The notes under the pieces: model-generated
Seen by the model: only the letters and a program-made list of their open reading frames with translations
Database searches by the model: none
What the model was told of the DNA's origin: nothing
Assembly (NCBI GenBank): GCA_963170165.1
Contig: CAUJGQ010000096.1
Location: 2,243-66,242, forward strand
DNA: 64,000 bases
Origin: Chloroflexota bacterium
Lineage (GTDB): Bacteria > Chloroflexota > Dehalococcoidia > CAUJGQ01
Direction of reading: 5' to 3'
Shown: in pieces, positions 30,226-50,501 of the stretch
Numbering within the stretch: position 1 is the first letter of the stretch
Layout of the letters: each line of letters starts with the position of its first letter
Made by a program: the position numbers and the translations under genes

Positions 30226-30396
30226 ATGCGCGCCATACCAGCGGCAGCCGCAGGACACGCGGGCTAGGGTGGGCGAGTGAGCAAACGCGCGTGATAGACT
30301 GCAAAGAAACGCGGCCCGTCCCAATCGAGGGCGGGCCGCCCGCTGTATCCCGGCCCGCGCGGGCCACCATCGGGTACGCAGGAGAGGGGACGGCGC

Positions 30397-31722
30397 ATGG
30401 CACGCACCAAGCAAGGAGACGGACAGGAATCGCAGGGCGCGGCCGGACACACGCCGGTATGGGAGATCGGGCAACTCGCCAACGGTATGCGCGTCGTCAC
30501 CACGCCCGTGCCGGCGGCGCAGTCCGTCTCGGTCAACGTCTTTATCGGTGTCGGCTCGCGTGGTGAGGAGCGACGCGTCAACGGCATCTCCCACTATATG
30601 GAGCACATGCTGTTCAAGGGCACGGAGCGGCGGCCAAATGCCATCGTCATCGCCGAAGCGATTGAGGGCGCGGGCGGCTCGCTCAACGCCTACACGGCCA
30701 AAGAGCTGACCTGCTACTGGAACCACGTACCCTATGACCATCTACCGGTGGCGATGGACGTCGTGGCAGACATGCTCCTCCACTCCAAGATCGAGCAGGA
30801 GGAGGTGGACCGCGAGCGGACCGTGGTTCAGCAGGAGATCCGCCGCTCCAAAGATCAGCCCGGCGCCTGGGCAGGCGAGCTGCTCTCGCGTGCGGTCTTC
30901 GGCGACCAGCCGATCGGCTGGTCCATCGCGGGCACGCTGGAAATCATCGAGGGGATGCAGCGACAGGACTTCTTTGACCACCTGGAGCGCTGGTACACCC
31001 CGCAAAACGCCGTCCTCTCCGTGGCCGGTAACACTACCCATAGCGCCGTGATGGAGATGGCCGCGCGGTCATTCGCCGGGTGGTCCGGCGCCGCTGCCCC
31101 CCGCTTCTTGCCGGCGCATCCGGAATTGGGCACCCCCCGCGTCCAGGCGGAACATCGCGACATCGCCCAATGCAATGTCGCCATCGGCCTGCGCGCCGTC
31201 TCCCGCACCGACCCGGACCGCTTCGCCCTCACCATCCTCAACAACATCCTTGGCCGGGGCATGTCGTCCCGTCTGTTCAAGGAGGTGCGCGAGCGGCGCG
31301 GACTGGCCTACTCCGTCGGCTCCTCGGTCTCCCGTCATGCCGACACCGGCACGATGTCCATCTCTGCCGGGGTGACTCCGGACAAGCTGCATGAGGCAAC
31401 GACCGTCATCCTCGATGAGCTGCGCCGCCTGTGTAACGAGCCGGTGGGCGACGACGAGATGACAAAGGCGCGCGATTACGCCGCCGGCTCCTTCCGCCTC
31501 GGGCTCGAGAGCACGATGTCACTCGGTCAGCGTGCCGGCGAAGCATTGCTCACCCTCGGCGAGATTGAGGCGGTCGACGACGTGGTCACCAAGCTACGGG
31601 CGATCACGGCGGAAGATGTGCAACGGGTAGCCCGCCGCCTGTTTCACAGCCACAACCTGGCGATGGCCGTGGTTGGCCCCGCCGGCGACCCGGACGAACT
31701 GGATAAGCTGCTGGTACTGTAG
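30397..31722 (+). CDS. M16 family zinc peptidase (insulinase/pitrilysin-like)
   Basis: Inverted zincin motif HYMEHMLFKGT (HxxEH). 441 aa. Confidence 0.85.
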   Translation: MARTKQGDGQESQGAAGHTPVWEIGQLANGMRVVTTPVPAAQSVSVNVFIGVGSRGEERRVNGISHYMEHMLFKGTERRPNAIVIAEAIEGAGGSLNAYTAKELTCYWNHVPYDHLPVAMDVVADMLLHSKIEQEEVDRERTVVQQEIRRSKDQPGAWAGELLSRAVFGDQPIGWSIAGTLEIIEGMQRQDFFDHLERWYTPQNAVLSVAGNTTHSAVMEMAARSFAGWSGAAAPRFLPAHPELGTPRVQAEHRDIAQCNVAIGLRAVSRTDPDRFALTILNNILGRGMSSRLFKEVRERRGLAYSVGSSVSRHADTGTMSISAGVTPDKLHEATTVILDELRRLCNEPVGDDEMTKARDYAAGSFRLGLESTMSLGQRAGEALLTLGEIEAVDDVVTKLRAITAEDVQRVARRLFHSHNLAMAVVGPAGDPDELDKLLVL

Positions 31723-31748
31723 TCCCCGCGAACCGGAGGTGAGCCAAG

Positions 31749-32003
31749 ATGCGCTGCCCGCTGTGCAATATCACGATGCGCGAGGTGCCCCGCCGCGGCG
31801 TCAAAATCGATATCTGCCCGCAGTGTCGCGGCGTCTGGCTGGATGGCGGTGAGATGGAACGGCTGCTAGAAGGGGCAGGGGACTGGGAAGAGGAGGACTT
31901 CCGCGAGCGCGAGCGCGGCCATGTCTACGCCGACTACGAGCATCATCCATACCGCCGCAAGAAGCGCCGCAGTTTTCTCGATGACTTGTTTGACTTTGAC
32001 TAA
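31749..32003 (+). CDS. zinc-ribbon domain protein (zf-TFIIB-like)
   Basis: CPLC...CPQCRGVWLDGGE motif with an acidic/basic tail. Confidence 0.6.
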   Translation: MRCPLCNITMREVPRRGVKIDICPQCRGVWLDGGEMERLLEGAGDWEEEDFRERERGHVYADYEHHPYRRKKRRSFLDDLFDFD

Positions 32004-32097
32004 TCCGGCCGCTTAAGGGTTTTCTCGATAACGGCTCAACCGCTCTGCTCCGACAATCCCGGTAGAGGCGGGCACACGGCCGCCTGGGAGGACGAAC

Positions 32098-32265
32098 GTG
32101 AGCGTGATTGAGCCGTTGATCGTCGTCTCGGCGACCGCTACCGCCACCGCGCCGGTTGCCTATGCACTGAAAACGATGGCCCGCCGGCGTGGCCGCGTGC
32201 TGGCTGGGGCCATCTTGCGCAGCCGGCTGGCGCCGTACACGCCGAAGAGTGCCGAGGGGGCTTAA
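32098..32265 (+). CDS. candidate small protein (55 aa, hydrophobic N-terminus)
   Basis: GGGAGGA RBS 5 nt before GTG 32098. High-GC3 frame in an otherwise empty 450-bp convergent gap. Not in the ATG-only ORF track. Confidence 0.25.
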   Translation: MSVIEPLIVVSATATATAPVAYALKTMARRRGRVLAGAILRSRLAPYTPKSAEGA

Positions 32266-32451
32266 ACGAGGAGCGGCAGTGATATCCGACCCCGCCTTCG
32301 GATATCACCGCCGTCCTACAACGTTAGTATGCCACGGCCGGCTGCCTGTGGATCGTCCGATCGCTATCACTTTTCTTGCAGCTTGGGTGACCGTCGCCCT
32401 GCGCCCGCGGAACCTCACGGTGGCCCAACCACGCGGCAAGGCCATTCGCGG

Positions 32452-33234
32452 CTATACGGCGGCGGTGATCGCATCGAGAAAGGCATCAAGCTCAACGGCG
32501 TACGCGTCTTTGGCTTCGGTGAAGGGGGCATGTCCGGCGCCGGGTATGACAGCCAGTTGGGCGTGAGGCACCGCAGCGGCCAGGGCGCGGGCGTCCTCCA
32601 GCATGCGGTCATGCTCACCGCACAGGATTAGCACCGGCATCGTCAGCGCGGCGGTGTCTTCGGTGATGGGGCGAAGCTGAGCCAGCGCCTCGTACTGCGC
32701 AGCCAGTGCCTCGGCGCCGGCGGCACGCAGGTGTGCCTCCCACTCTGCCCGGCGTACGGGGTGACGCGGTGCCCCTGGTAGCCGGGCGATGAACGGCTCC
32801 AGCCCTTCTACCCGCAGCCGCTCGGCCGCGCGCAGATAGAACTCGCGCCGCTGGCCGTGTGCCCCCAGCGCCGGGGCGGCCACCGCCACCACCGCCCGCA
32901 CCCGCTGTGGATGTGTCCGGGCAAACTCCAGCGCCGCCCGCGCCCCACGCGAGTGGCCACCTATCACCGGGCGCTCCAGCCCGAGCGCGTCCAGGAGCCC
33001 GAGCAGATCGCCGGCCAGTAGGGTGGGAGCGTAGGAGGCCGCCGCGACAAACGCCGTCGTGCCGCCCTGGCCACGCGGATCGACGCTGATGAAGCGGTAC
33101 CGGCCAAGCTGGCGCTCGTGGGCGCGCAGCGACATGGCCGCGTGATCGTTGCCGCCCGGCAGCCACACGACCGGCGGCCCCTGTCCCTCGTCCAGATAGT
33201 GGATGCGAATGCCGTTCGCTTCAATCGTTGGCAT
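32452..33234 (-). CDS. alpha/beta hydrolase fold protein
   Basis: GHSRG nucleophile elbow (GxSxG) and an N-terminal IRIHYLDEGQGPPVVWLPG motif. Start assigned to MPTIEANG. Confidence 0.75.
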   Translation of the reverse strand: MPTIEANGIRIHYLDEGQGPPVVWLPGGNDHAAMSLRAHERQLGRYRFISVDPRGQGGTTAFVAAASYAPTLLAGDLLGLLDALGLERPVIGGHSRGARAALEFARTHPQRVRAVVAVAAPALGAHGQRREFYLRAAERLRVEGLEPFIARLPGAPRHPVRRAEWEAHLRAAGAEALAAQYEALAQLRPITEDTAALTMPVLILCGEHDRMLEDARALAAAVPHAQLAVIPGAGHAPFTEAKDAYAVELDAFLDAITAAV

Positions 33235-33439
33235 GGCCGGCCCCAAGCAGTGATGCAACGCCCGCAGTTGTAGCACGGCCCGCCACCAGGCGCGAGCGCA
33301 GTTCTTCAGGCACTTTTCAGGATTGTCTCCGGCCGAACAGCGCCGCTGTATGCCCGGTCGCGGCGGCCGGCGTGGATGACAGGCATGCTGCAGTGGCACG
33401 GCGGCGAGGGGCCGCCACCCAGCACCAGGAGGCACACCG

Positions 33440-33550
33440 ATGTACCACGAGAGCCTGCGCCTGTACTCTGTCCTCGCGGCCAGCCGCTTCGATAAGTACC
33501 TGCTCAACCCCCAGCCGCTGCCGCCGCGCTACGCGTTCTACCTCCGCTAG
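33440..33550 (+). CDS. candidate small protein (36 aa, Tyr-rich)
   Basis: Perfect AGGAGG SD 7 nt before ATG 33440 in a 400-bp intergenic region. Confidence 0.2.
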   Translation: MYHESLRLYSVLAASRFDKYLLNPQPLPPRYAFYLR

Positions 33551-33636
33551 GCGACAGTCCCGGTCGTCTGTTTCTGCGCACGCGCCGTGCCGGTCCTCCC
33601 CCGGACGGCGCGTGCCGCCCTGTGGCGCCTGCCACC

Positions 33637-34314
33637 CTATCCCTGCTCAGTGAGCATGCCATCGCGCATGGCGAGGATGCGTGCCGCATAGGCCGCCATC
33701 CGGCTGTCATGGGTTACCATCAGCCCGGTCTTGCCGCGGGAGGTGATCTCCTGGCGGAGCATCTCCACCACCTGCTGACCGCGTTCGGTATCCAGGCTGG
33801 CAGTCGGCTCATCGACCAGGATGATGTCGGGGTCGTTCATCAGCGCTCGACCGATGGCGACCCGCTGCCGCTCGCCACCGGACAGCCGGGCCGGCAACAC
33901 CCGTGCCCGGCGGCTGAGCCCCAACTCCTCGATCAACTGGTCTGCACGCTGTCGCGCCTCGTTGGTCACCCGGCCGCTGATGGCGGCCACCACCAGCAGG
34001 TTGTCTCGCGCCGTCATATAGGGAATCAGGTTCGATCCTTGAAAGACAAAGCCCACCCGCTCCCGCCGGAACCGCGCCAGCCCGCGGCCCGACAGCCGGT
34101 GCACCTCGATATCCCCGATCAGTACCCGCCCAGAGGTGGGAGTGAGCAGGCCGCCCAGCATCGCCAGTAGCGTCGTCTTGCCGGAACCGCTCGGCCCGAC
34201 CAATGCCAGGAACTCCCCTGGTTCCGCCACAAAGGCGGCATGACGCACGGCCTGGACGGCATCCTCGCCATCGCCGTACGTCTTGTTCAGGTCCTGAACC
34301 TCGATGTGTGGCAC
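33637..34314 (-). CDS. ABC transporter ATP-binding protein (MacB/LolD-like)
   Basis: Walker A GPSGSGKTT, signature LSGGERQRVAIGRAL, and Walker B ILVDEP. GTG start 20 nt after the permease stop with an AGGA RBS. Confidence 0.8.
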   Translation of the reverse strand: MPHIEVQDLNKTYGDGEDAVQAVRHAAFVAEPGEFLALVGPSGSGKTTLLAMLGGLLTPTSGRVLIGDIEVHRLSGRGLARFRRERVGFVFQGSNLIPYMTARDNLLVVAAISGRVTNEARQRADQLIEELGLSRRARVLPARLSGGERQRVAIGRALMNDPDIILVDEPTASLDTERGQQVVEMLRQEITSRGKTGLMVTHDSRMAAYAARILAMRDGMLTEQG

Positions 34315-34333
34315 GGTCTGATCCTGCGAGGCG

Positions 34334-35437
34334 TTACTGCTGCTGACCGAGCGCGATGATGGGGTCAACCTTCGCCACCTGGCGACCGGAAAACAGCGCC
34401 CCCAACATCGCAGCCAGCAGCAGCCCGAGAGCGGTGTAACCATAGGTGGCGCCCGTGAAGGCGACGGGCACACCGTCATCCGGGATCAGTGCGGCGGTAG
34501 CCAGCGCCAACGGGATGGCGACAGCCAGCCCGGCGAGGGTGAGCAGCACCACCTGGAGCAACAACTGCCGGAACACGAACCAGCCGGAGGCCCCCAGTGC
34601 CTTGAGGATGCCAATGTGCGGAACCTTTTGCAGGGTGAGCACATAGAAGAAGATGCCGATCACCATCCCACCGATCACGAAGCCCATGATCTGCAACGAG
34701 CGCACGGTTTGCTGCTGCGCTGCCACCCCTTCGATTTTGAAAAAGGCATCGTACGGGGAGAGCGCCCGAATGCCACGTACGGCGTCCTCCAGCATCCGGG
34801 GCACGACCTCACCATCCGCCAGCACCACGTTGCCGGCCGGCACGTTCGCCCCCTCTGCGCCGTACCGGAGCTGCTGCCAGGTCTCCCGGTTGGTGAACAA
34901 CGACGGCTGAAAGAAGAAGTTGCCCGCGTTGACCGCGCCGGTGATACGCAGCGTTCGCGTCTCCAGCCGCACCGTCAGCTGCACCGTATCCCCCACGGCC
35001 AGCCCGGCGCGGCGCAGGTACCGCCGGTCTGCCACGATCGCATCGCGTTCCTCCGGCGCAACCGCACGCCCCTCGACAATGCGCGGGGCGCCGAGACTGC
35101 CATGGTCATAGCCGATCAGCGTGGCGGGGTACTGCCGGTCATCCCGAAAGGTGGTGACGGAGAAGAAGCCCAGCGGCGCCACCGCACGCACACCAGGCGC
35201 CGCCTGGACGGCAGCCAGCTGCTGGGGACTGATCTCGCTGCGCAGCAGCGAGTAGTTGGCGTTGCCGTTGTAGACCACGGCATCTACCGGCAACTCCCGC
35301 ACCCAGCTACCGGACTGCTCCTGCAGCCCGACACCGAGGCCGCTGATCATCACTACCAGGTAACCGATCAGGGCGATGATCGCGACGATCAGCAGGAACT
35401 GCACCGTCCGGTGGCGGATCTCATTCAGTGCGAGCAT
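34334..35437 (-). CDS. ABC transporter permease, FtsX/MacB-type
   Basis: N-terminal transmembrane helix, a large extracytoplasmic domain, and a C-terminal 3-transmembrane FtsX module. GGGAG RBS. Confidence 0.8.
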   Translation of the reverse strand: MLALNEIRHRTVQFLLIVAIIALIGYLVVMISGLGVGLQEQSGSWVRELPVDAVVYNGNANYSLLRSEISPQQLAAVQAAPGVRAVAPLGFFSVTTFRDDRQYPATLIGYDHGSLGAPRIVEGRAVAPEERDAIVADRRYLRRAGLAVGDTVQLTVRLETRTLRITGAVNAGNFFFQPSLFTNRETWQQLRYGAEGANVPAGNVVLADGEVVPRMLEDAVRGIRALSPYDAFFKIEGVAAQQQTVRSLQIMGFVIGGMVIGIFFYVLTLQKVPHIGILKALGASGWFVFRQLLLQVVLLTLAGLAVAIPLALATAALIPDDGVPVAFTGATYGYTALGLLLAAMLGALFSGRQVAKVDPIIALGQQQ

Positions 35438-35466
35438 GCCGGCTCCCTACCGCCTTCGTCGCCTTA

Positions 35467-36384
35467 TCAGTGTGTCACGAGCGCGGCCACGGCGGCGGAG
35501 GCGGCCCGCAGATCGCCTTCCGGCGCCACCACACCGGGGGGCAGCTCCACCAGCCGGGCGGCGGGGCCACCAACGGCGATCACACACCCCAACGCGGAGC
35601 CGCTCAGCGCGGTAAGGGTCGCATGCAGCGCCGGCGCCGAGGCCGTGGCGGTAGCGCTCAGGCACACCGCCGGCGCGCCGCTGTCCCGCAGGCAATGCAT
35701 GAGATCCACCACCGGGACATCGGCGCCGAGATACAACGCGCGCACCCCAGCCCAGCGCAGGAACAGCCCCAGCATCAGCAGCCCCAGCGCGTGCTGCTCC
35801 CCCGGGACACAGGCCAGGATCACGGCTGGCGCGCCGGTGAGCGGCGGCTGAGCATGCCACAGCGCCTGCAGCCGCCGCTGGATGACGTTGGTGGCGAAGT
35901 GCTCGGCGCTGACCGGCAGATCGCCGCCGGCCCATTGCTCGCCGATGGCGTACAGCGCGGGAACGATCACGCCCAGCAGCACGTCGTCGGGAGAGAAGCG
36001 GGCATACGCTTCGCTCTGCACCGCATGCAGCGCCGGCTCGTCATAGCGGGCCGCGGCCTGCAACAGCTGGTCCGTCAGTGACGTCTGCGGCCTCAGCACC
36101 GGCGGCGCGCCATCAGATGCCGTACCCGGCGCGGCGCGCTGGGCCCAGCGCACGGCCTGGGCCGCACTCAGACCGCGCGCTGTCTGGACGCGCACCCAGG
36201 CGATGGCGGCCACCTCGCGCTCGGAATACAACCGGCGGGCGGAGGGGCTGCGGTCCGGAGAGGGAAAACCGTAGCGCCGTTCCCACGAGCGGAGGGTGGC
36301 CGCCGGCACGCCGGTGCGGCGCTCCACAGCTCGGATGTTGTACCGCGGCTCATTCACGCTGTCAGTTATCCATATCTCATGCAA
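35467..36384 (-). CDS. MerR family transcriptional regulator with C-terminal cobalamin-binding domain (CarH/LitR-like)
   Basis: MerR HTH (YNIRAVERRTGVPAATLRSWERRYG). B12-binding signature ExHxxG (PGEQHALG) and a downstream GG. The start is uncertain: TTG 36384 or GTG 36357. Confidence 0.7.
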   Translation of the reverse strand: MHEIWITDSVNEPRYNIRAVERRTGVPAATLRSWERRYGFPSPDRSPSARRLYSEREVAAIAWVRVQTARGLSAAQAVRWAQRAAPGTASDGAPPVLRPQTSLTDQLLQAAARYDEPALHAVQSEAYARFSPDDVLLGVIVPALYAIGEQWAGGDLPVSAEHFATNVIQRRLQALWHAQPPLTGAPAVILACVPGEQHALGLLMLGLFLRWAGVRALYLGADVPVVDLMHCLRDSGAPAVCLSATATASAPALHATLTALSGSALGCVIAVGGPAARLVELPPGVVAPEGDLRAASAAVAALVTH

Positions 36385-36475
36385 CTACTATGCAATCACC
36401 CTAGTCTGCCGCGGCGCCGGTGGTCAAGCAGCGGCCCGCCAGGACGTGCGCATGAGCCATGCCGAGCCGGACAAG

Positions 36476-36573
36476 CAGAGGGGACCAGCGTGCTGCCGGT
36501 CCCCTCGTTGGCTGCGGTGCCGGGTGAGCGCTTAGTGCGCGGCGGCGCCGGAGTGGGCGAAGCCGATGTTCGG
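36476..36573. repeat. left copy of a 98-bp direct repeat (att-like): orphan duplicate of the TPP-enzyme gene 3' end plus terminator
   Basis: 95/98 identical to 42092..42189. Its reverse complement encodes ...PNIGFAHSGAAAH-stop with no gene attached. Contains the GGGGACC-N11-GGTCCCC hairpin. Confidence 0.8.
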
Positions 36574-36721
36574 AGTCGAAGCAGCGAGGTGCTTACTGGG
36601 GATACCTCAAAGTACTCGGTGCCTGCTATCCGGTTGTCACGGTAAAACTCCACTGCCAGGTTCCGAACAGGCTACCCCGCCAGCACTCGGAGATGGTCGT
36701 ATCTACAGGAGCAAGCTGTCC

Positions 36722-38569
36722 TCATAACCCTCTGCTGAGGAAGGCAACCAGGAGAGCACCTACGCCGGCGGCTAGAGACAGCACCACAGCTACCTTCACC
36801 CAAGCCGGAGCGCCGTCCTTTTGCGTCGGCCGTGGCGGTTGCGTAGGTCGTGGTGGCCCAGCCGGCGTGGGAGCAGCGGGTATGGGTGCTTGCAGCGGTG
36901 ACTGTAGCCCTGGCACAGCAGGGCGAGTCGCCGGTACCGCACGTGGGGGCTGCTGCGCCGATGGCTTGGCTGGCTCAAGCGGTCGAGAGGGCGATGGCGC
37001 ACCGGGAGAATGACTTGTCTGCTTCCTGATCTCCGCCAATACATCCATGTTCCTGGACTGCCGGGTCACGGGTGGCTGTGCAGTGGGCAGAGAGACGTGC
37101 GACGGCCCCTGAACTGACGGCGGTGGCAACGGGCCGGGCTCCGTGGATACTGGCGAGGAGATCTGTGGCGTTACCCTCGCGAGTGAACCGGGACCGCTCC
37201 CCAGGAGTCGAGGTGGCGGGCCGCCGCGGTTCAGTCTGAACTTCGCCTCTTGTTCGTCGATGAACTTGACCTGTGACTGATCCGTTATGGTAATGCCGAT
37301 GCTCTCGTACGACGGACCGACATAGGGCGGCTCTACCAATCCACTCACACTGACCCAGCGGCCTACCCATGCCGCAGATGGCCGGTCGCTGAATGTTGTC
37401 AGTCCTTCCGACCAGATGGTCAGCCGTGCACAGTTAAGCTTCCAGTTGCCAAAATTAACAAAAGCATACGGGTTCCCGTAGCGAGTAGTGGCAGTTTTTG
37501 TCTCGACTACCTTGCCAACGAGTTCCACCTTATCGCCAACCCGCCGGAGAACGGTCTTGTAGTCTGATGCGTCAACGACATCATAGGCGCCGACATAGCG
37601 CAGCGGCTGTTGAGGGACGGTGTGCCTTGACGCTGGTTGGGCAACAGTGACGGCGGATGCAGATGCAGGCCGTTTACCAGCTGCGAAGGCACCAAGGGCA
37701 GGCACGCTCTGGATCGGTGCCGCGCAAAGCTCTGCGAGTTGCTCCGCCTGCCGCTGTAAATCTGGTAGCCGCAAGAGGATCTTGAAGATTTCAGACTGAT
37801 TTGGATCCGCGAAGTCGCCAGCTTTGAAGACGATAGTCTCTCCACCTTCGCTGTACTTCGCGTAAAGTTCCGGGTTCGCCGCAAGCGCCTGCAGGCTGAC
37901 ATCGATGACAATCAGCGAGAAGCGATCGATCCAGGGGCCGAACTGATCGCCCGTTCGTCCAGGATGCTGGAAGTGCTTGAGGCCTATCTCGCTACTGCGT
38001 GTAACGGGTAGGCCGGGCACCCACATGCCGTCGTAATCGATCAGCTTGATGGAACCGTCACGCTGCACCATGACATTGCCGTTTTGCAGATCCCCATGCC
38101 CGATTCCTTGCTGCTCGAGGAATCCCGCCAGCGCACGAAATTTCGTCTGCAGCGACCGGATTGCCTGCGCATTACGGTACTGATGCTGGAGGTAGATGCC
38201 GAGCGTGTCGCCCTCCAGCCAGTCCATCACAACGATCGGGAAGACATTGCCATTCGCGCGAATTCCACTTGGTTGAAAAGAGAATTGTGTGAAGTAGTCA
38301 GACTGAAGCTTCCCAATGGAGCTGGAAATCGCTGCGTACTTCCCCTCGATATCCGGAACCGATCGGTGGAAGCACCGCACGGCGTACTTCTTCGAACCTG
38401 CCGTCAGCTTGTATGTCAGGGCAAATCCGCCGGAGCGTGCGAAGGGGATACCGAAAGAATTGGTTTCGACCTTCGCCTGCTTGAGCTCCGTATCGACAAA
38501 CGCGAACTGCGGATTCTGCAGCAGTTCCTGGTATTCGAGCATAGTGGGATACGCAGCCATTGCGGTCAC
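36722..38569 (-). CDS. protein-kinase-like protein with C-terminal OB-fold-like domain, Pro-rich linker and transmembrane anchor (TerY-P kinase component candidate)
   Basis: Catalytic-loop-like HGDLQNGNVMV (HxDxxxxN) and Mg-binding LIDYDGM (DFG-like). No canonical Gly-rich loop. C-terminal WVKVAVVLSLAAGVGALLVAFL transmembrane helix. ATGA overlap with the upstream PP2C gene. Confidence 0.7.
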   Translation of the reverse strand: MTAMAAYPTMLEYQELLQNPQFAFVDTELKQAKVETNSFGIPFARSGGFALTYKLTAGSKKYAVRCFHRSVPDIEGKYAAISSSIGKLQSDYFTQFSFQPSGIRANGNVFPIVVMDWLEGDTLGIYLQHQYRNAQAIRSLQTKFRALAGFLEQQGIGHGDLQNGNVMVQRDGSIKLIDYDGMWVPGLPVTRSSEIGLKHFQHPGRTGDQFGPWIDRFSLIVIDVSLQALAANPELYAKYSEGGETIVFKAGDFADPNQSEIFKILLRLPDLQRQAEQLAELCAAPIQSVPALGAFAAGKRPASASAVTVAQPASRHTVPQQPLRYVGAYDVVDASDYKTVLRRVGDKVELVGKVVETKTATTRYGNPYAFVNFGNWKLNCARLTIWSEGLTTFSDRPSAAWVGRWVSVSGLVEPPYVGPSYESIGITITDQSQVKFIDEQEAKFRLNRGGPPPRLLGSGPGSLARVTPQISSPVSTEPGPLPPPSVQGPSHVSLPTAQPPVTRQSRNMDVLAEIRKQTSHSPGAPSPSRPLEPAKPSAQQPPRAVPATRPAVPGLQSPLQAPIPAAPTPAGPPRPTQPPRPTQKDGAPAWVKVAVVLSLAAGVGALLVAFLSRGL

Positions 38570-39318
38570 CAGAGTACGAGGAGTGTAGTGTCATCGCGAC
38601 GCAGCCGACCACTTGCCCGTTCGTCAATCACGAACGTGCGAAAGGCACCGATGTCCTGAAGTTCCAGAAGACGCCGAACGGGATTGACTCCGAGACCTGA
38701 CTGCTCAAGGAACCAGAGGCCGAGTGCGTCGGTCATACACAGCAGGCGCGGCTGTTGATAATCCTGTAAGTCAAACTCCCCGCACCAGTCCCACCGGAGG
38801 AAGCCGTCCTCATCAAATTGATTCTCACTGAGATTAGTTGAAATCAGGTGGGGTCTGTTGCCGAACTGACTGGGATGAGACAAAGGAAACATTTGCTGGA
38901 TGGCGTCACCGTCGCAGAGCACACCGCAGGTGTCACCAATTGCCTGGATCTCCAGCAAACCCTGCGCGCGATAGCGAATACCCAGAAGACTCGCGAAGTT
39001 GCCCCGCTCCATCGCTGCCTGAGCGTGCCAAGGAAGATTATCCCAGTCAAAGCGCTTCGCGAACTCTTGCGCGACCTTCTTTAGTGAGTCGCGTCTGATG
39101 CTGGGGTCACGCACGTAGTGGCACACGAGCATCTGCGCCCAGGTGGCAGAGTCAAACGATACCGAAGCCCCATCGCTGAGCGCATATCTGCCCCAGCCGC
39201 GGTGCGCTTTCCACTTGTCCTCGTTCTGGGAGCCGTCGTCGTGCTTGGGTACCGTGAACTCGCGCCGCAACTGGAATGCGTCGGTTGACACCTTCGCCCC
39301 CCTAGCGATCGCCCGCAA
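38566..39318 (-). CDS. PP2C-family Ser/Thr protein phosphatase
   Basis: N-terminal metal-binding motif GSQNEDKW, the LSDGASVSFDSATWAQML block (equivalent to DGMGGHxxG), and the C-terminal DDTTLLVLW end typical of PP2C/SpoIIE phosphatases. Confidence 0.65.
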   Translation of the reverse strand: MRAIARGAKVSTDAFQLRREFTVPKHDDGSQNEDKWKAHRGWGRYALSDGASVSFDSATWAQMLVCHYVRDPSIRRDSLKKVAQEFAKRFDWDNLPWHAQAAMERGNFASLLGIRYRAQGLLEIQAIGDTCGVLCDGDAIQQMFPLSHPSQFGNRPHLISTNLSENQFDEDGFLRWDWCGEFDLQDYQQPRLLCMTDALGLWFLEQSGLGVNPVRRLLELQDIGAFRTFVIDERASGRLRRDDTTLLVLW

Positions 39319-41038
39319 CTACGTTCGCACGTGTGCCAATGTCGAAAAAGTCCACGATGAATCCGGGCGACTGCACATTGTACATGAAACCACGCGCGCC
39401 ATCCGCGATCTGGTAGTCTTTGCTCATCGCCGCCTGAACGAGGTGCGCTGGCAGTGCACTCGAGGCTCGGAAGAGCATGCGGGCGGAGTCATCAGGAAGG
39501 CCCGTCTCATCAGATGGGAGGACGATCGGCGCGATCGCTCCAAGGGCAACGTGGAGATTGAACACAAGAATCTCTCCATCATCGGTGCCCATGAGCCGCA
39601 ACTTCTCGACGATCTCTTCTGGCGACCCATCGGTGGACACACCATCGGTGATATGCAGTACGGTCGGTGGGTAGGAGTTCGGATGGGCATCGCACCAGGC
39701 TGCCAGTACCTCGGCAGCGCGCACGAAGGCCGCACGCATCGGTGTACCACCGGTGTTCTTTGGCTCGAACCAGACGGGGAACTTCGTGTTCATCTCGACA
39801 ACGCCACCGGCCCCGTCGTCGACTTTGCGCTTTCTCTCCTCAATGCGCAGAGGGTTATCAGCGATCATGCTGATAGAATGAAGATCCTGTCCAGCCAGGT
39901 TGCCGCTGAAGCCCGGCGCTACGCTGTTACCACCGTACCCAAGCACGCCGATGTCAAAGTAGTCCCGCACGCCGTCGGCTTTGGTGCAAACTTGGCCAAG
40001 CGTGTAGATGGTGCGATTGAGGACGTCCGCGACGAACTCGGCCTTGGACCGGCCACTCTCCATGCGTTCGTCCATGGAACCTGACTGGTCGACGAGAAAT
40101 AGAAAACACGTGGGGTTGGCTCTGCTGATCTCACCGCGATACGACATAGCTTCTGGATGCTCCTTGTGTTGCTGTTTGGATAGATTGATATTGTCCCAAT
40201 CCGGTCGCTCACTCGAGCCAACATATAAAGAGTCGATGAGGAAGCTCTCCGGGGACTCGACGTTGTACATGAAACCACGCGCACCATCCCCAACCTGGCA
40301 GCCCCGTTCTTGCGCTTCGTAAAGAAGGTGATCGGGCAGCGCACTCGATGCCCGCCACAACATGCGGGCGTTTTCATTCGGCAGCCTGGATTCGGTTGCT
40401 GGAAATAGGAGTTCTGAGTGACCCCCAGGAGCTACTTGCAGGTTGAAGATCAGGGAAGCGCCGTCGGCAGTTCCAAAATTCTGCAGTGACTTGCTGAGCA
40501 ACTCAGGCGACCCATCGGTCGAGTCGCCGCCAGTTAGGTGGAGTACGGTGGGAGGATAGGAGTCTGGATGGCGTTCGCACCAGGCTGCCAGTACCTCGGC
40601 AGCGCGCACGAAGGCCGCACGCATCGGTGTACCACCGGTGTTCTTTGGCTCGAACCAGACGGGAAACTTCGTGCTCATCTCGATCACGCCACCGGCGCCA
40701 TCGTCCACCGTTCGCTTCCGATCCTCGACCCGCAACGGGTTATCAGCCACCACACTTGTTGGATGAAGAACCTTGCCCGCAAGTATGCCGCCAAAACCCG
40801 GTGCCACGCTGTCATCACCATAACAAAGCACGCCGATGTCAACGTAATTTCGGACCCCATCTGATCTACAACTGCACTGGATTAATCGGGAAATGGCTCG
40901 GTTAAGTATGTCTGCAACGATCTCTGACCTGGGAGTTCCACTCTCCAGGTGCCCTTTCATCGACCCAGATTGATCAACAAGGAACAGGAAGCAGGTGGGC
41001 TTGGTTGGGCTGATCCAGGCGCGATACGGCATGATCAC
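39302..41038 (-). CDS. tandem-duplicated vWA (von Willebrand factor A) domain protein, TerY-like x2
   Basis: Two MIDAS motifs CFLFLVDQSGSM (DxSxS), one per half, with a TDG(D/V)STDG second metal loop. The two halves are about 60% identical with an 885-bp period. Confidence 0.75.
   Translation of the reverse strand: MIMPYRAWISPTKPTCFLFLVDQSGSMKGHLESGTPRSEIVADILNRAISRLIQCSCRSDGVRNYVDIGVLCYGDDSVAPGFGGILAGKVLHPTSVVADNPLRVEDRKRTVDDGAGGVIEMSTKFPVWFEPKNTGGTPMRAAFVRAAEVLAAWCERHPDSYPPTVLHLTGGDSTDGSPELLSKSLQNFGTADGASLIFNLQVAPGGHSELLFPATESRLPNENARMLWRASSALPDHLLYEAQERGCQVGDGARGFMYNVESPESFLIDSLYVGSSERPDWDNINLSKQQHKEHPEAMSYRGEISRANPTCFLFLVDQSGSMDERMESGRSKAEFVADVLNRTIYTLGQVCTKADGVRDYFDIGVLGYGGNSVAPGFSGNLAGQDLHSISMIADNPLRIEERKRKVDDGAGGVVEMNTKFPVWFEPKNTGGTPMRAAFVRAAEVLAAWCDAHPNSYPPTVLHITDGVSTDGSPEEIVEKLRLMGTDDGEILVFNLHVALGAIAPIVLPSDETGLPDDSARMLFRASSALPAHLVQAAMSKDYQIADGARGFMYNVQSPGFIVDFFDIGTRANVVAGDR
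39692..39778. repeat. 87-bp segment perfectly identical to 40577..40663 (core of the intragenic vWA duplication)
   Basis: Direct comparison of the two halves of the 39302..41038 gene. The flanks diverge gradually. Confidence 0.85.
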
Positions 41039-41075
41039 TCCGGATGCCGAGTCTTCGTACCTTTGGCTGGCACCA

Positions 41076-41921
41076 TCACGTCAGTTGAGCGCGCGTGCCG
41101 ATATTGAAGAAGTCGACGATGCTCGAGATATCCGCGTTGTAGACGAAGCCACGTGCTCGCTCCTGTATCCGCAGCCCTTGCTGGCGGGCAGACTGGATCA
41201 AAGTCGCGGGTAGTTCGCTCGACATCTGGAACAGCTTGACGGCGTACTTATTTGGCAATCCAGCTGGGTCTCTCGGAAAGGCATGCGAGTTGCCGTGCCC
41301 CTGGTCGACGTGGAGATTGAACAGCAAACATTGGCCATCCTCTGTTGCAAGCGCCCTCACCTTGGCGGCTATGGGCTCGGGATCACCATCTGTCGGATGC
41401 CCATCGGTTACGTGCAGCAAGATGGGTGGATAGCTGAGTGGGTGGCGGTGCACCCAGTCATTCAATGTCTGATGGGCAAGTCCGAGTCCAGCGCACATCC
41501 CGGTCCAGCCGCGGCTGCACGGCTCTACCCAGACCGGAAATCGTATCGGGTTGCTAATCGTGTCTCCGGTCTCAGACTTGACCTGCTGCTGACGAGTCTC
41601 AATACGCAAGGGGTGCGTAGCCATGAGTGAAAGTGGATGGAGGACGGCGGTATTGAGTACGCCGTGTAAGGCGTTCTCAGCAAGTCCAAGGTCACGCGTC
41701 AGACCGCTGTAACCGATGACGCCGACATCGAAGTAGTCACGCACTCCATCGTGTCGTGTGGAAGCGACAGCCAGGGTGGCGAGGGTGCGATTGATCACGT
41801 CGCACAGAAACTGTGCCTTCGTGCCTGCGCCTTCGACATGCTCGCGCATCGAGGTCGATTGGTCTACAAGGATTAGCAGGCATGCAGGCGACGTCTGGCT
41901 GATGGCAGCGGAGTACACCAC
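41076..41921 (-). CDS. vWA domain protein (TerY-like), first gene of the operon
   Basis: MIDAS ACLLILVDQSTSM plus TDGHPTDGD. Paralogous to both halves of the fused gene. GGGAGA RBS. Confidence 0.75.
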   Translation of the reverse strand: MVYSAAISQTSPACLLILVDQSTSMREHVEGAGTKAQFLCDVINRTLATLAVASTRHDGVRDYFDVGVIGYSGLTRDLGLAENALHGVLNTAVLHPLSLMATHPLRIETRQQQVKSETGDTISNPIRFPVWVEPCSRGWTGMCAGLGLAHQTLNDWVHRHPLSYPPILLHVTDGHPTDGDPEPIAAKVRALATEDGQCLLFNLHVDQGHGNSHAFPRDPAGLPNKYAVKLFQMSSELPATLIQSARQQGLRIQERARGFVYNADISSIVDFFNIGTRAQLT

Positions 41922-42001
41922 TGGAGATCTCCCGCGGCTTCAGCGTGCGACAGTGTTGACGTGCTAGTTGTCGCAGCGACTGGCACTCTAGCTGGTTTGG
42001 T

Positions 42002-42030
42002 ATCATACATAGACATTATGTGACATGCAA
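42002..42030 (-). promoter_or_regulatory. putative sigma-70 promoter for the vWA-PP2C-kinase operon (TTGCAT, 17 nt, TATGAT on the minus strand)
   Basis: Near-consensus hexamers with a 17-nt spacer in an AT-richer 180-bp region about 75 nt upstream of the vWA start codon. Confidence 0.4.
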
Positions 42031-42091
42031 TCATTTCGAAAGGCGTGGTCGCCTCATTGCCCTCATCTGAGGTCGTGCAGTGAAGTCAATA

Positions 42092-42189
42092 CAGAGGGGA
42101 CCAGCGTGCTGCCGGTCCCCTCGTTGGCTGCGGTGCCGGGTGGGCGCTTAGTGGGCGGCGGCGCCGGAGTGGGCGAAGCCGATATTCGG
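42092..42189. repeat. right copy of the 98-bp direct repeat: the genuine 3' end (last 14 codons plus stop) and terminator hairpin of the TPP-enzyme gene
   Basis: Reverse complement reads DPNIGFAHSGAAAH-stop in frame with the 549-aa ORF. Hairpin GGGGACC-N11-GGTCCCC at 42096..42120. Confidence 0.85.
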
Positions 42190-43797
42190 GTCGGTGATGA
42201 CATTGATGCAGGCGGGGACTCCGGAGGCAAACGCCCGCTCCAGCGCCGGCCGGATCTCCTTGGCTTCGGTCACCATCTCGCCGTAGCCGCCCATCGCCTC
42301 GACGATTTTGTCGTAGCGCACGCTCTGCGACAGCTCCTGCGCGACGGTGTGGCCGTAGCGCTGCATCTGCGGGCGCTTGTTTTCGCCCCAGGCGCCGTCG
42401 TTGCCGATGATCGACACCACCGGCAGCTTGTGCCGCACCATCGTCTCGAACTCAAAGCCGTTGAGACCGAAGGAGCCGTCGCCGTTGACGATCAGCACCT
42501 GCTCCTGCGGACGGGCCAGCTTGGCGGCGATGGCGTAGCCGGTGCCGACGCCCAGGCAGCCCAACCCGCCCGGATCAAGCCAGTGGCCGGGCTTGTAGAT
42601 GTCGAGGATGCGGGCCGCGGTGGTGACGACATCGCCGCCGTCACCGATCACCGTGGCGTCGCGGTCGATGAAGTCGCGGATCTCCTTGCACAGGCGGTAG
42701 GGGTGAATCGGGTTCTGGTCCGAGTTCATCACCGCCTCATCCGCCTTGCGCGTCTGCCCCTCGATGCCGCGCAGCAGCTCGATCCAGGCATCGCCGCCAC
42801 GGCGGTCGCGGCCGGTCTCCAGCTCGTTGACCAGCTGCGTGAGCACGGAGTTGACGTCGCCCACCAGCCCGACCTCGATGTCACGGTTCTTGGCGATCAG
42901 CGTCTCATCGACATCGACTTGGATCACCTTGACGTCCGGGTGGAAGCGCGGCGGCCGGCCGAAGCGCAGGCGGAAGTCGAACGGCGCGCCGATCACCAGC
43001 ACGACATCGGCCTGAGACAGCGCCTGCCCGCGGGAGAAGGCAAAGAACAGCGGGTGGTCGGCAGGGATGGCGCCGCGGGCCATGCTGTTCAGATAGACCG
43101 GGGCGTTGAGCGTCTCGATAGTGGCGCGCAGGGCGTCCCACGCCTGGTCAAACCAGATGGCGGAGCCGGCCATCACCACCGGCCGCTCGGCATTCGCCAG
43201 CAGATCGGCGGCGCGGCGCACCTCATCCGGGTCGGCCTGGGTGCGGCCGGTGGCGCGGTCCTGCTTGGGCCACCACACCTTCTCCTCGGCAGCGCTGCCC
43301 ATGATCACGTCGATCGGCACCTCCAGGAAGGAGGGGCCAGGCCGGCCGGCAATGGCATGGCGGAAGGCGATGGAGATGTACTCGGGCAGGCGGGCCGTCT
43401 GCGCCACCATCGCCGAGTACTTGGTGATCGGGCGCAGGAAGTCCAGGTGATCGATCTCCTGGAGGTTGCCCATCCCCCACTGCGCCAGCGGGCTCTTGCC
43501 ACCGATCACGATGCAAGGCGCGCCGCTCTGCAGGGCGGAGACGATACCGGTGACGCCGTCGGTGACGCCTGGTCCGGCGGTAATGGCGGCCACACCCGGC
43601 TTGCCCGTCACCTTCGCCCAGCCCTCGGCAGCGTGCACGGCCGCCTGCTCGTGGCGAAAGTCAACGACGCCGATACCTTCTTTGACGCAGCCGTCATAGG
43701 TGGGCGAGATATGCCCGCCGCTGAGCGTGAACAGGTGCTGCACGCCCTCTTTCTTGAGCTGGCGGGCGATGAGATGCCCGCCATGCAAATCGGCCAT
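42148..43797 (-). CDS. thiamine pyrophosphate-dependent enzyme (acetolactate synthase large subunit/oxalyl-CoA decarboxylase family)
   Basis: N-terminal TPP_enzyme_N motif (GVQHLFTLSGGHISPTYDG), TPP-binding GDGSFGLNGFEFETMVRH...N motif, and 549 aa. GGAGG RBS. Confidence 0.8.
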   Translation of the reverse strand: MADLHGGHLIARQLKKEGVQHLFTLSGGHISPTYDGCVKEGIGVVDFRHEQAAVHAAEGWAKVTGKPGVAAITAGPGVTDGVTGIVSALQSGAPCIVIGGKSPLAQWGMGNLQEIDHLDFLRPITKYSAMVAQTARLPEYISIAFRHAIAGRPGPSFLEVPIDVIMGSAAEEKVWWPKQDRATGRTQADPDEVRRAADLLANAERPVVMAGSAIWFDQAWDALRATIETLNAPVYLNSMARGAIPADHPLFFAFSRGQALSQADVVLVIGAPFDFRLRFGRPPRFHPDVKVIQVDVDETLIAKNRDIEVGLVGDVNSVLTQLVNELETGRDRRGGDAWIELLRGIEGQTRKADEAVMNSDQNPIHPYRLCKEIRDFIDRDATVIGDGGDVVTTAARILDIYKPGHWLDPGGLGCLGVGTGYAIAAKLARPQEQVLIVNGDGSFGLNGFEFETMVRHKLPVVSIIGNDGAWGENKRPQMQRYGHTVAQELSQSVRYDKIVEAMGGYGEMVTEAKEIRPALERAFASGVPACINVITDPNIGFAHSGAAAH

Positions 43798-43929
43798 GTG
43801 CCTGCCTCCAATGGCTATTCACAGGTACCCGCGGCCAGTCTCGTGCTTCCCGGCACAAGCCGCAAGCGCGGGCCAGCAGGCGAGCCGCGCGCCACCGATG
43901 AGACCGCTGCAAACGCTCGCAAGCGTGCG

Positions 43930-45495: not shown

Positions 45496-45528
45496 GGGGA
45501 GCCCCTCCGCGTTCCGCGCGTTACCGGT

Positions 45529-48663: not shown

Positions 48664-48764
48664 CCTCCGGCCGGGTGAGCCCGCTTCGCTCTCACACCTG
48701 CTCGCCCGCTGCGTTACCCTGTCCCCAGCGGAACGGACAGCCCATGCAGGGGAAGGAGCCGCGC

Positions 48765-49403: not shown

Positions 49404-49449
49404 GCGGCGCCGGCCTGCCTGCAGGCTGCCCCCGTGAGAGGAGCGAGTG

Positions 49450-50487: not shown

Positions 50488-50501
50488 CCGAGGAGTCCCC
50501 C

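What the first reader, a model, noticed from the sequence alone, without database searches (positions are those of the whole stretch)
36476..36573. 98-bp direct repeats (97% identical) flank the islet; one copy is an orphan duplicate of a gene's last 14 codons plus terminator
The copy at 42092..42189 is the real 3' end of the 549-aa TPP-enzyme gene, encoding ...DPNIGFAHSGAAAH-stop, together with its GGGGACC-N11-GGTCCCC hairpin. The copy at 36476..36573 reproduces the same 98 bp with 3 mismatches and no attached ORF, and similarity stops abruptly on both sides. Regenerating the 3' end of a target gene is the classic footprint of site-specific (tyrosine/serine recombinase) integration, usually at tRNA genes but here at a protein gene. 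No recombinase gene lies between the repeats. That suggests a decayed or in-trans-mobilised islet, or an integration mechanism not encoded locally.
Basis: seen in the sequence. Interest (0 to 1): 0.7.

Follow-up and report, generated by a model that had tools for sequence, protein, structure and literature searches.

The report
Integrase-less defence islet with 98-bp repeats
A 5.5-kb anti-phage gene cassette (TerY-P) lies just after an enzyme gene between two 98-bp copies of that gene's tail, and related metagenome contigs show the same site without it; this is a real present/absent mobile insertion of a familiar kind that carries no recombinase of its own.

Summary
Window 36476-36573 and 42092-42189 are 95/98 identical direct repeats and occur only twice in the window. 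They bracket a 5,518-bp low-GC segment with four genes, which PADLOC identifies as a complete TerY-P anti-phage system (TerY, TerY-TerY fusion, PP2C, STK_OB). No recombinase lies in the islet or in any of about 52 window genes.

New evidence:
- Metagenome contig L007 shows an unoccupied site. It has 9 nt of the TPP gene, then one repeat copy, then the MerR-B12 flank, with 0 mismatches over 814 nt.
- That single copy carries the orphan-copy allele at all three variant positions.
- A second metagenome contig (L022) has the occupied junction.
- Contig break points suggest occupied and empty forms coexist in two further samples.

The orphan copy is therefore most likely the original host gene end, and the copy now finishing the gene probably arrived with the islet. 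That fits site-specific integration with crossover at the gene-proximal edge (CCGAA), giving an att-flanked, integrase-less, CIME-like element. The recombinase step is inferred, not shown. One-off illegitimate recombination, or RecA-mediated integration with the alleles reversed, remains possible. This is a new member of a known kind, of modest interest.

The parts
42092..42189 (-). Repeat copy B (gene-proximal, attL-like). It supplies the last 13 codons, the stop codon and the 3' hairpin of the TPP-enzyme gene. Inferred to have been brought in with the islet.
   Evidence: It differs at 3/98 positions from the empty-site allele in L007. It is identical in a second occupied contig, L022.
36476..36573 (-). 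Repeat copy A (gene-distal, attR-like, 'orphan'). Inferred to be the displaced ancestral 3' end and hairpin of the TPP gene, still joined to its original downstream flank (the MerR-B12 upstream region).
   Evidence: It is identical to the single copy in empty-site contig L007, and its flank is identical over a further 716 nt.
36574..42091 (-). Islet cargo (5,518 bp): the TerY-P operon plus 148-nt and 170-nt non-coding ends. GC is 56-60% against 66-72% in the flanks, and GC3 is 0.65-0.68 against 0.78-0.90.
   Evidence: composition. (PADLOC). (no terminal inverted repeats or shared end motifs).
41076..41921 (-). TerY (vWA-domain protein, 281 aa), first gene of the islet operon.
   Evidence: PADLOC TerY, E=1.3e-94. 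Weak Pfam VWA_2 hit.
39302..41038 (-). TerY-TerY fusion (578 aa, two vWA domains) formed by an internal tandem duplication with an 885-nt period.
   Evidence: PADLOC TerY, E=4.6e-229, two matched stretches. Repeat families D1/D3, 81-82% identical.
38566..39318 (-). PP2C-type Ser/Thr phosphatase (250 aa) of TerY-P.
   Evidence: PADLOC PP2C, E=1.2e-63. No Pfam hit.
36722..38569 (-). STK_OB Ser/Thr kinase (615 aa) of TerY-P, with a Pro-rich C-terminal tail and a hydrophobic C-terminus.
   Evidence: PADLOC STK_OB, E=5.8e-170. Weak Pfam Pkinase hit. The best database relative is only 56% identical.
42148..43797 (-). Target gene: a thiamine-pyrophosphate enzyme (acetolactate-synthase-like, 549 aa). 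Its 3' end is the integration site.
   Evidence: Pfam TPP_enzyme_N/M/C. Orthologues listed.
35467..36384 (-). MerR-HTH / B12-binding regulator gene. It is the original downstream neighbour of the TPP gene.
   Evidence: Pfam. Adjacency in empty-site contig L007.
42185..42189 (-). Inferred crossover zone (CCGAA in gene sense), between the gene-proximal repeat edge and the first variant position at 42184.
   Evidence: Inference from the allele pattern: proximal copy B-B-B, distal copy A-A-A, empty site A-A-A. Logan contigs L014 and L015 end exactly at 42185.
42094..42122 (-). Stem-loop (12-bp G+C-rich stem, 5-nt loop) after the TPP stop codon, in copy B.
   Evidence: The same stem with a different loop occurs in the 92%-identical sister lineage L005.
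36478..36506 (-). The identical stem-loop in copy A. It now lies about 215 nt downstream of the STK_OB stop codon, where it could terminate the islet operon ahead of the MerR promoter region (inference).
   Evidence: coordinates.

Best explanation
The 5,616-bp unit is a small, non-autonomous integrative element. It consists of copy B plus the 5,518-bp TerY-P cassette, and its cargo is an anti-phage defence operon.

Proposed mechanism (inferred):
- The circular form carried an attP made of a 98-bp look-alike of the TPP gene's last 13 codons, stop codon and hairpin.
- A site-specific recombinase recombined attP with the chromosomal TPP 3' end, crossing over at the gene-proximal edge of the identity block (CCGAA). 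The recombinase was most likely of the tyrosine type and was encoded elsewhere or has since been lost.
- The gene is now completed by element-borne sequence (copy B).
- The host's original tail and hairpin (copy A) were displaced 5.6 kb downstream, still attached to the MerR-B12 upstream region.
- The element is left as an att-flanked islet without integration genes, like a CIME or pseudo-SCC element. It is present in some members of this Chloroflexota population and absent in others.

Shown: the repeat, the foreign cargo and its identity, the absence of a local recombinase, an empty site, a second occupied site, and the allele pattern.

Inferred: the circular intermediate, the recombinase and its class, the exact crossover point, and current mobility.
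For: 1. The repeat is real and occurs only twice in the window.

2. The cargo is foreign. It is the only GC/GC3 outlier in 64 kb. It is a complete TerY-P system: TerY 1e-94 and 5e-229, PP2C 1e-63, STK_OB 6e-170.

3. Empty site. L007 (GCA_009612875.1, WBZR01172694.1) reads ATCACCGAC (TPP codons I-T-D), then one repeat copy, then the MerR flank and gene. It has 0 mismatches to window 36573..35760.

4. Allele pattern. The L007 copy has the copy-A allele at all three variant sites. Copy B differs from it at 3/98 positions, against 0/716 in the adjoining flank (Fisher p=0.0017) and 0/4118 using L018 (p=1e-5). This argues against divergence in place and for an imported copy B. Both coding differences are synonymous.

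5. The extent of the identity block makes functional sense only if it replaces the gene tail. It runs from inside the coding sequence to the base of the hairpin. The hairpin is native to this gene lineage, since L005 has the same stem with a different loop.

6. A RecA-mediated deletion between the repeats would most likely leave B-type alleles. L007 is A-A-A, so it is either never occupied or precisely excised.

7. Second occupied junction. L022 comes from another metagenome and has a different TPP haplotype but an identical copy B.

8. Contig break points in k=31 Logan assemblies:
- Five MerR-side contigs end at 36505, 30 nt into the repeat.
- Two TPP-side contigs from different samples end at 42185, one base before the first variant. 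This is as expected if TPP+B and TPP+A both occur in those samples.

9. No tRNA, tmRNA or Rfam RNA offers an alternative target.

10. Precedent. In Dehalococcoides, 15 ssrA-flanked islands lack an integration module and were proposed to be cis-mobilizable elements (PMC3146451). CIMEs are defined in PMC5704250.
Against: - No recombinase was found in the islet or in about 52 genes of the window.
- No integrase pseudogene remnant is visible. The non-coding ends are only 148 and 170 nt.
- The two islet ends share no arm-type or inverted motifs.
- No attP junction and no near-identical element were found elsewhere. The best STK_OB relative is 56% identical, and phage, plasmid and viral collections have no match.
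- The empty-site contig extends only 9 nt into the TPP gene, and its other end is unexplained and possibly chimeric.
- The identity available at the inferred crossover is only 5 nt (CCGAA), with mismatches on both sides. That is short for a typical tyrosine-recombinase overlap region.
- The TPP gene shows clustered SNPs among strains. Copy B is only marginally more divergent than ordinary strain variation in that gene (3/98 vs 10/1608, p=0.035). Copy B could therefore be a native allele, with copy A the imported one.
Confidence: 0.5

Rival explanations
1. One-off homology-facilitated illegitimate recombination. A linear fragment from a related strain carried the TPP gene tail (B allele) followed by the cassette. 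It anchored by homology in the TPP gene. Its far end joined illegitimately 98 nt upstream of where homology ends, duplicating the tail. Ordinary homologous recombination in the flanks later spread presence and absence among strains. No dedicated recombinase was ever involved.
For: - There is no recombinase anywhere nearby.
- A CGAC match displaced by 1 nt at the islet/copy-A junction could be a microhomology scar.
- The TPP side is mosaic, with clustered SNPs at 0.3-0.6% divergence, while the MerR side is almost invariant. This shows frequent recombination on that side.
- The islet ends share no motifs.
Against: - It requires a donor that already had the cassette exactly at the foot of the TPP hairpin, so the origin problem is only moved back.
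- A donor of the same species would normally recombine through both flanks without creating a duplication.
- The microhomology is imperfect (extra T) and 4 nt is within chance.
- The tidy replacement of exactly the coding tail plus hairpin is unexplained.
- H1, H2 and L022 share an identical 269 nt upstream of the repeat, so no donor tract is visible there.
Confidence: 0.22
2. Campbell-type integration by general (RecA) recombination, or by a site-specific crossover in the hairpin region, with the alleles reversed. In this view the occupied strains natively carry allele B. The circular element carried allele A, captured from an L007-like strain, and the crossover fell in the 51-nt perfectly identical hairpin half of the repeat. 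The orphan copy would then be the imported one.
For: - The 51 nt nearest the hairpin end are identical in both copies, which is long enough for RecA-type exchange.
- SNP clusters are common in this TPP gene among strains, so the B allele could be native variation (p=0.035 only).
- No recombinase was found.
Against: - Copy A is contiguous with a flank that is 100% identical to the empty-site strain over 716-4118 nt, while copy B differs at 3/47 positions next to it. The simplest reading is that A plus its flank form one ancestral piece.
- No B-type empty site was observed.
- With recipient = A, a RecA crossover would have to fall in the first 5 of 98 nt (5%).
- An element has no functional reason to carry 42 nt of coding sequence upstream of its crossover point.
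Confidence: 0.2
3. Transposition-like insertion that generated a 98-bp target-site duplication in place, followed by three substitutions in the gene-attached copy.
For: Direct repeats flank the insertion. All three changes are neutral for the gene: two are synonymous and one is in the UTR.
Against: - No transposase was found.
- There are no terminal inverted repeats.
- A 98-bp duplication is far longer than known target-site duplications (established knowledge).
- 3/98 changes in copy B against 0/814 in copy A plus flank, relative to the empty site, argue against divergence in place (p=0.0017).
- The chance that all three changes fell on one copy is 1/8.
Confidence: 0.04
4. Assembly artefact: the duplication or the empty site results from mis-joining of metagenomic contigs at a repeat.
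For: - The window and all comparison sequences are metagenome assemblies.
- L007 is short, reaches only 9 nt past the repeat, and has an unexplained far end.
Against: - The occupied proximal junction was assembled independently in L022, from a different metagenome and haplotype.
- The Logan contig ends are exactly what a true two-copy repeat predicts.
- The two copies differ at three sites, so they are not a collapsed or duplicated read pile.
- The k-mer ATCACCGACCCGAAC in L007 exists in neither junction of the occupied form, so real reads must carry it.
Confidence: 0.04

Closest known systems
CIMEs (cis-mobilizable elements) and other att-flanked, integrase-less remnants of ICEs/IMEs. In streptococci such elements lie at the 3' end of protein genes such as fda (from memory).
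   Same: [quoted passage not shown] No integration or transfer genes. Carries adaptive cargo. Matches the definition in PMC5704250.
   Different: - There is no trace of decayed integration or transfer genes, only a single clean operon.
- No neighbouring partner element or third att copy lies within the window, so there is no sign of accretion.
- The identity block is 98 bp.
- The host is an uncultured Chloroflexota lineage.
- Mobilisation was not demonstrated.
Dehalococcoides ssrA genomic islands (ssrA-GIs), including the 15 islands without an integration module (PMC3146451).
   Same: Same phylum. Low-GC islands inserted at the 3' end of a single-copy gene and bounded by a direct repeat of that gene's end. 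Some lack any recombinase and were proposed to be cis-mobilizable.
   Different: - The target there is the tmRNA gene, with 20-bp repeats, tandem arrays and a DsiB/CcrB-type serine recombinase on sister islands.
- Here the target is a protein-coding gene, the repeat is 98 bp, the island is single, and no recombinase of any class was found.
SCCmec and ccr-less pseudo-SCC elements at the 3' end of rlmH (orfX) in staphylococci (from memory; SCC is also discussed in PMC3146451).
   Same: Site-specific insertion at the 3' end of a protein-coding gene that leaves the gene intact. Direct repeats at both ends. Variants lacking recombinase genes exist and depend on recombinases supplied in trans.
   Different: SCC repeats are about 15-20 bp and the recombinases are large serine recombinases. 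Nothing here points to a serine recombinase, and a long identity block is more typical of tyrosine integrases.
Integrative elements whose tyrosine integrases recognise long attP/attB identity blocks covering a gene's 3' end, for example actinomycete integrative elements such as SLP1 or pSAM2 at tRNA genes (from memory).
   Same: An identity segment of tens to about 100 bp that restores the 3' end of the target gene. The crossover lies at the gene-proximal side of the block, and the displaced original end sits at the far side of the element.
   Different: Those elements encode their own int/xis genes and usually target tRNA genes. Here there is no int gene and the target is a protein gene plus its hairpin.
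TerY-P (TerY-phosphorylation triad) anti-phage system. This describes the cargo, not the integration mechanism.
   Same: vWA (TerY) protein, PP2C phosphatase and Ser/Thr kinase in one operon. All three PADLOC models match strongly. The system is described as active against T7-like phages (PMC7699616, citing Gao et al. 2020).
   Different: There are three TerY domains (one single gene plus a fused tandem pair) instead of one. The kinase is only 56% identical to its nearest database relative. Defence activity was not tested.

Membership tests
CIME-like (att-flanked, integrase-less integrative element) | [quoted passage not shown] | tested here: met
   98-nt direct repeats, 95/98 identical, covering 13 codons, the stop codon and the hairpin of the TPP gene.
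CIME-like (att-flanked, integrase-less integrative element) | Lacks its own integration and transfer genes | tested here: met
   The four ORFs are TerY, TerY-TerY, PP2C and STK_OB. No recombinase, relaxase or transposase domains were found in the islet or the rest of the window.
CIME-like (att-flanked, integrase-less integrative element) | The insertion is a discrete unit: an unoccupied target site exists in related genomes | tested here: met
   L007 joins the TPP tail directly to the MerR flank. The contig break at 42185 in two samples implies both forms are present. Caveat: L007 reaches only 9 nt past the repeat.
CIME-like (att-flanked, integrase-less integrative element) | Derived by decay from an ICE or IME (remnants of integration or transfer modules) | tested here: not met
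   No pseudogene remnants were seen. The non-coding ends are 148 and 170 nt and share no motifs. The origin by decay is therefore unsupported; it 'works like' a CIME at most.
CIME-like (att-flanked, integrase-less integrative element) | att sites are functional: excision or integration by a recombinase supplied in trans or in cis by accretion | not testable with these tools
   This needs raw-read searches for attP/attB junctions, or an experiment. No cognate recombinase-bearing element was found.
Tyrosine-recombinase site-specific integration at a gene 3' end | The gene-proximal repeat copy derives from the element and the distal copy from the host (crossover at the 5' edge of the identity block) | tested here: inconclusive
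   The allele pattern fits: proximal B-B-B, distal and empty site A-A-A. The reversed assignment is not excluded, because the TPP gene has SNP clusters among strains.
Tyrosine-recombinase site-specific integration at a gene 3' end | An integrase gene adjacent to one att site | tested here: not met
   None in the islet or the window.
Transposon / insertion sequence | A transposase, terminal inverted repeats and a short target-site duplication | tested here: not met
   No transposase. No terminal inverted repeats. The repeat is 98 bp and its copies are not identical.
Dispersed REP-like / generic repeat | Many copies at unrelated loci | tested here: not met
   Two copies in the window. No phage, plasmid or viral matches. 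The three metagenome hits to the 23-nt core share only 24-25 nt.
TerY-P defence system (cargo) | Co-operonic vWA (TerY) protein, PP2C phosphatase and Ser/Thr kinase (STK_OB) | tested here: met
   PADLOC: TerY 1.3e-94 and 4.6e-229, PP2C 1.2e-63, STK_OB 5.8e-170. All are on the minus strand, overlapping or closely spaced.
TerY-P defence system (cargo) | Confers phage resistance | not testable with these tools
   Requires experiment. Activity of the family is reported in the literature only (PMC7699616).

The most novel reading that the evidence does not exclude
The islet is a truly recombinase-free mobile defence cassette. It carries a decoy copy of a host gene's tail and hairpin. It moves between strains using a host-encoded or otherwise unlinked enzyme that recognises that hairpin or tail, as IMEX elements exploit Xer, or through a mechanism not yet described. 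If so, 'naked' defence operons could hop into the ends of housekeeping genes without bringing any mobility gene.
Probability: 0.08. Interest if true: 0.7.

Novelty: new member of a known kind. Interest (0 to 1): 0.3.

Why it matters
It is a clean natural example of how an anti-phage system can sit in a genome as a minimal insertion. The insertion does no damage to the gene because it brings its own replacement for the gene tail it displaces. It is also polymorphic (present or absent) within one uncultured Chloroflexota population.

It adds a protein-gene target and a TerY-P cargo to the short list of integrase-less, att-flanked islets in this phylum. It also offers concrete junction sequences with which public read sets can be searched for excision circles.

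It does not change how genomic islands are understood, unless the missing recombinase turns out to be something unusual.

Tried and rejected
1. Synteny in more distant relatives gave no empty-site comparison. L001 (69% identical protein), L003 (85%) and L004 (82%) have unrelated genes downstream of the TPP gene.

2. I first thought the post-hairpin tail of sister lineage L005 resembled the MerR-side flank. A local-alignment shuffle test showed no significant similarity to either flank (p=0.88 and 0.69), so I dropped that argument.

3. Exact look-ups of the window's TPP and MerR proteins failed because of start-codon differences or indexing. Cluster look-ups solved this.

4. A scan of JGI metagenome contigs with the 23-nt conserved core returned three contigs that share only 24-25 nt, which is uninformative.

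5. Viral contigs (two patterns), phage records and plasmid records had no match.

6. The search for close relatives of the islet found nothing above 56% identity outside this population. The nearest TerY-P locus, L012, sits in an unrelated context.

7. I looked for terminal inverted repeats or shared 8-11-mers at the islet ends as possible arm-type sites. There were none.

8. I considered integron attC, Xer/dif (IMEX) and hairpin-targeting IS families by reading the sequence. I saw no GTTRRRY core or dif-like motif in the 98-mer, and no matching enzyme is encoded. This was inspection only, not a formal search.

9. The simple terminator scan does not call the hairpin, because it lacks a T-run.

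Full report
**1. Observation**

The two 98-nt segments 36476-36573 (copy A) and 42092-42189 (copy B) are direct repeats with 95/98 identity. Each half of the repeat occurs exactly twice in the 64-kb window, with none expected in shuffles.

Copy B ends a 549-aa thiamine-pyrophosphate enzyme gene (42148-43797, minus strand; Pfam TPP_enzyme_N/M/C). In gene sense the repeat holds 13 codons (PNIGFAHSGAAAH), the stop codon and 56 nt of 3' UTR. The UTR contains a stem-loop with a 12-bp stem and a 5-nt loop.

The three differences are AAT/AAC (Asn), GCC/GCG (Ala) and one base after the stop codon, so both coding differences are synonymous. Copy A has no ORF in frame. Two small corrections apply: the repeat holds 13 codons plus stop, not 14 plus stop, and the hairpin is longer than described and lacks a T-tract, so the terminator scan does not call it.

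**2. What lies between the repeats**

The 5,518 bp between the copies (36574-42091) has 56-60% GC against 66-72% in the flanks. It is the only compositional outlier in the window. GC3 of its genes is 0.65-0.68, against 0.78-0.90 for every other gene.

It holds four minus-strand genes. PADLOC assigns them to the TerY-P defence system:
- TerY, 41076-41921, E=1.3e-94
- TerY-TerY fusion, 39302-41038, E=4.6e-229
- PP2C phosphatase, 38566-39318, E=1.2e-63
- STK_OB kinase, 36722-38569, E=5.8e-170

TerY-P is described as a vWA protein, a Ser/Thr phosphatase and a Ser/Thr kinase acting against T7-like phages (PMC7699616, citing Gao et al. 2020).

No recombinase or transposase domain occurs in these four proteins, nor in about 48 further ORFs covering the rest of the window. 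There is no tRNA, tmRNA or Rfam RNA in the window, so the protein gene's tail is the real target.

**3. An empty site exists**

Distant relatives were no help because synteny downstream of the TPP gene is not conserved. The same population, however, is sampled in several public metagenomes.

Contig L007 (GCA_009612875.1, WBZR01172694.1) begins ATCACCGAC. These are the TPP gene's own codons I-T-D that precede the repeat at copy B. They match the islet sequence next to copy A at only 1 of 9 positions. L007 then continues through a single repeat copy into the MerR-B12 upstream region and gene. Positions 10-823 match window 36573..35760 with no mismatch.

That test is therefore passed. Caveats: only 9 nt of TPP sequence are present, and the other end of L007 (its last ~128 nt) matches nothing I hold.

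**4. Which copy is original**

The single copy in L007 carries the copy-A allele at all three variant sites. Copy B differs from this empty-site allele at 3/98 positions. Copy A plus its flank show 0 differences over 814 nt. The Fisher test on the 716 nt of flank outside the repeat (3/98 vs 0/716) gives p=0.0017. Using the 4.1-kb Logan contig L018 it gives p=1e-5.

Divergence in place after a target-site-type duplication is therefore unlikely. The simplest reading is that copy A and the MerR flank are one ancestral piece, and that copy B arrived with the cassette. If so, the exchange lies in the first 5 nt of the repeat (CCGAA, 42185-42189), at the gene-proximal edge.

This geometry is classic for integrases that target gene 3' ends (established knowledge). 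The element's attP carries a replacement for everything downstream of the crossover, and the host's original end is displaced to the far side of the element. It also explains why the identity block runs from inside the coding region exactly to the foot of the hairpin. The hairpin is native to this gene lineage, because the 92%-identical sister lineage L005 has the same stem with a different loop.

Historically, then, the 'orphan' is probably the original, and the gene-attached copy is probably the import.

**5. Population evidence**

- L022 (GCA_009612775.1, WBZY01015257.1) is an independently assembled occupied junction: TPP, copy B, TerY. It has a different TPP haplotype but an identical copy B.
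- Five Logan assemblies contain MerR-side contigs that all stop at window 36505, 30 nt into the repeat. That is what a k=31 graph gives when the hairpin half of the repeat has two contexts, so the islet is present in all five samples.
- Two TPP-side Logan contigs from different samples (L014, L015) both stop at 42185, one base before the first variant. An occupied-only population should run on to about 42113. A branch at that base implies that both TPP+T (occupied) and TPP+C (empty, as in L007) occur in those samples. This is an inference from contig ends, not from reads.
- A RecA deletion between the repeats would most likely cross over in the 51-nt identical part and leave B alleles. L007's A-A-A allele therefore indicates a never-occupied site or a precise site-specific excision.

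**6. What is not shown, and the rivals**

I found no recombinase, no attP junction and no close relative of the element elsewhere. The best STK_OB relative is 56% identical. Phage, plasmid and viral collections have no match. The islet ends share no motifs and have no inverted repeats. Only 5 nt of identity, bounded by mismatches, is available at the inferred crossover.

The TPP gene also shows clustered SNPs among strains: 10 in 1,608 nt between two haplotypes, plus a 6-SNP patch in L022. Copy B is only marginally more divergent than that background (p=0.035). Copy B could therefore be a native allele, with copy A the import and the crossover in the identical hairpin half (RecA or site-specific). 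A one-off homology-facilitated illegitimate recombination is also possible, and a 1-nt-displaced CGAC match at the islet/copy-A junction could be its scar. Transposition and assembly artefact are unlikely (section 4).

My estimates are:
- about 0.5 for site-specific integration of a non-autonomous element
- about 0.2 for each of the two recombination rivals
- a few per cent each for transposition and assembly artefact

**7. Comparison with known systems**

[quoted passage not shown] It also resembles the 15 integration-module-less ssrA islands of Dehalococcoides, which are in the same phylum (PMC3146451), and ccr-less pseudo-SCC elements at the end of rlmH (from memory).

Differences from these:
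- The target is a protein-gene tail plus its hairpin.
- The identity block is 98 bp.
- There is no accretion partner or third att copy in the window.
- There are no decay remnants, so descent from an ICE or IME is not supported.

It works like a CIME; membership in the strict sense is unproven.

**8. Verdict**

The finding is real, and the insertion polymorphism is documented. The mechanism is probably site-specific integration with an unlinked or lost recombinase. It is a new member of a known kind, with modest interest (0.3). The most novel reading not excluded is a truly recombinase-free cassette moved by a host or unknown enzyme that recognises the gene tail or hairpin. I give that about 8%.

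Noticed in passing
window 50502-51302 (+), position 50774: The enoyl-CoA hydratase gene is split by a TGA codon where the related-strain contig L013 has TGG (Trp91). This is a nonsense mutation (pseudogene) or a base error in the window's assembly (Pfam halves).
   Followed up: partly
L007 positions 824-951 (breakpoint corresponds to window ~35760, inside the MerR-B12 gene): After 814 nt of perfect identity, the empty-site contig continues with about 128 nt that match nothing in the window or in any fetched locus. This truncates the MerR-B12 gene near codon 200 and starts a membrane-protein-like ORF. It is either a chimeric contig or a second structural variant.
   Followed up: partly
window 39302-41038 (-): The middle islet gene is a fusion of two TerY (vWA) units created by an 885-nt tandem duplication, about 81% identical (D1/D3). 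The nearest relative, L012, has two separate 281-aa TerY genes. The islet therefore encodes three TerY domains for one phosphatase and one kinase.
   Followed up: partly
window 42190-51438 versus 29920-36505: Strain-level diversity is asymmetric around the islet. On the TPP side there are 12-21 SNPs per 3-8 kb, arranged in tight clusters, plus a 6-SNP patch at 42328-42382 in L022. On the MerR side there are 0-2 SNPs in up to 6.6 kb. This suggests recombination tracts on one side only.
   Followed up: no
window 36569-36578 and 42185-42198: Next to the gene-proximal repeat edge, the gene reads ACCGAC|CCGAA and the islet reads TTCGACT|CCGAA. A CGAC match is displaced by one extra T. It could be chance or a junction scar.
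   Followed up: no
window 36722-37200 (-), C-terminus of STK_OB: The kinase ends in a long Pro/Ala/Ser-rich low-complexity stretch followed by a hydrophobic segment (…VKVAVVLSLAAGVGALLVAFL…). This suggests membrane anchoring. GC rises locally to about 0.67 in this part of the otherwise low-GC islet.
   Followed up: no
window 52738-54462 (+): A 574-aa ORF has only a weak NYN-domain hit (E=7.7e-5, just below the Pfam cut-off) and no other family. It is an uncharacterised putative RNase-domain protein.
   Followed up: no
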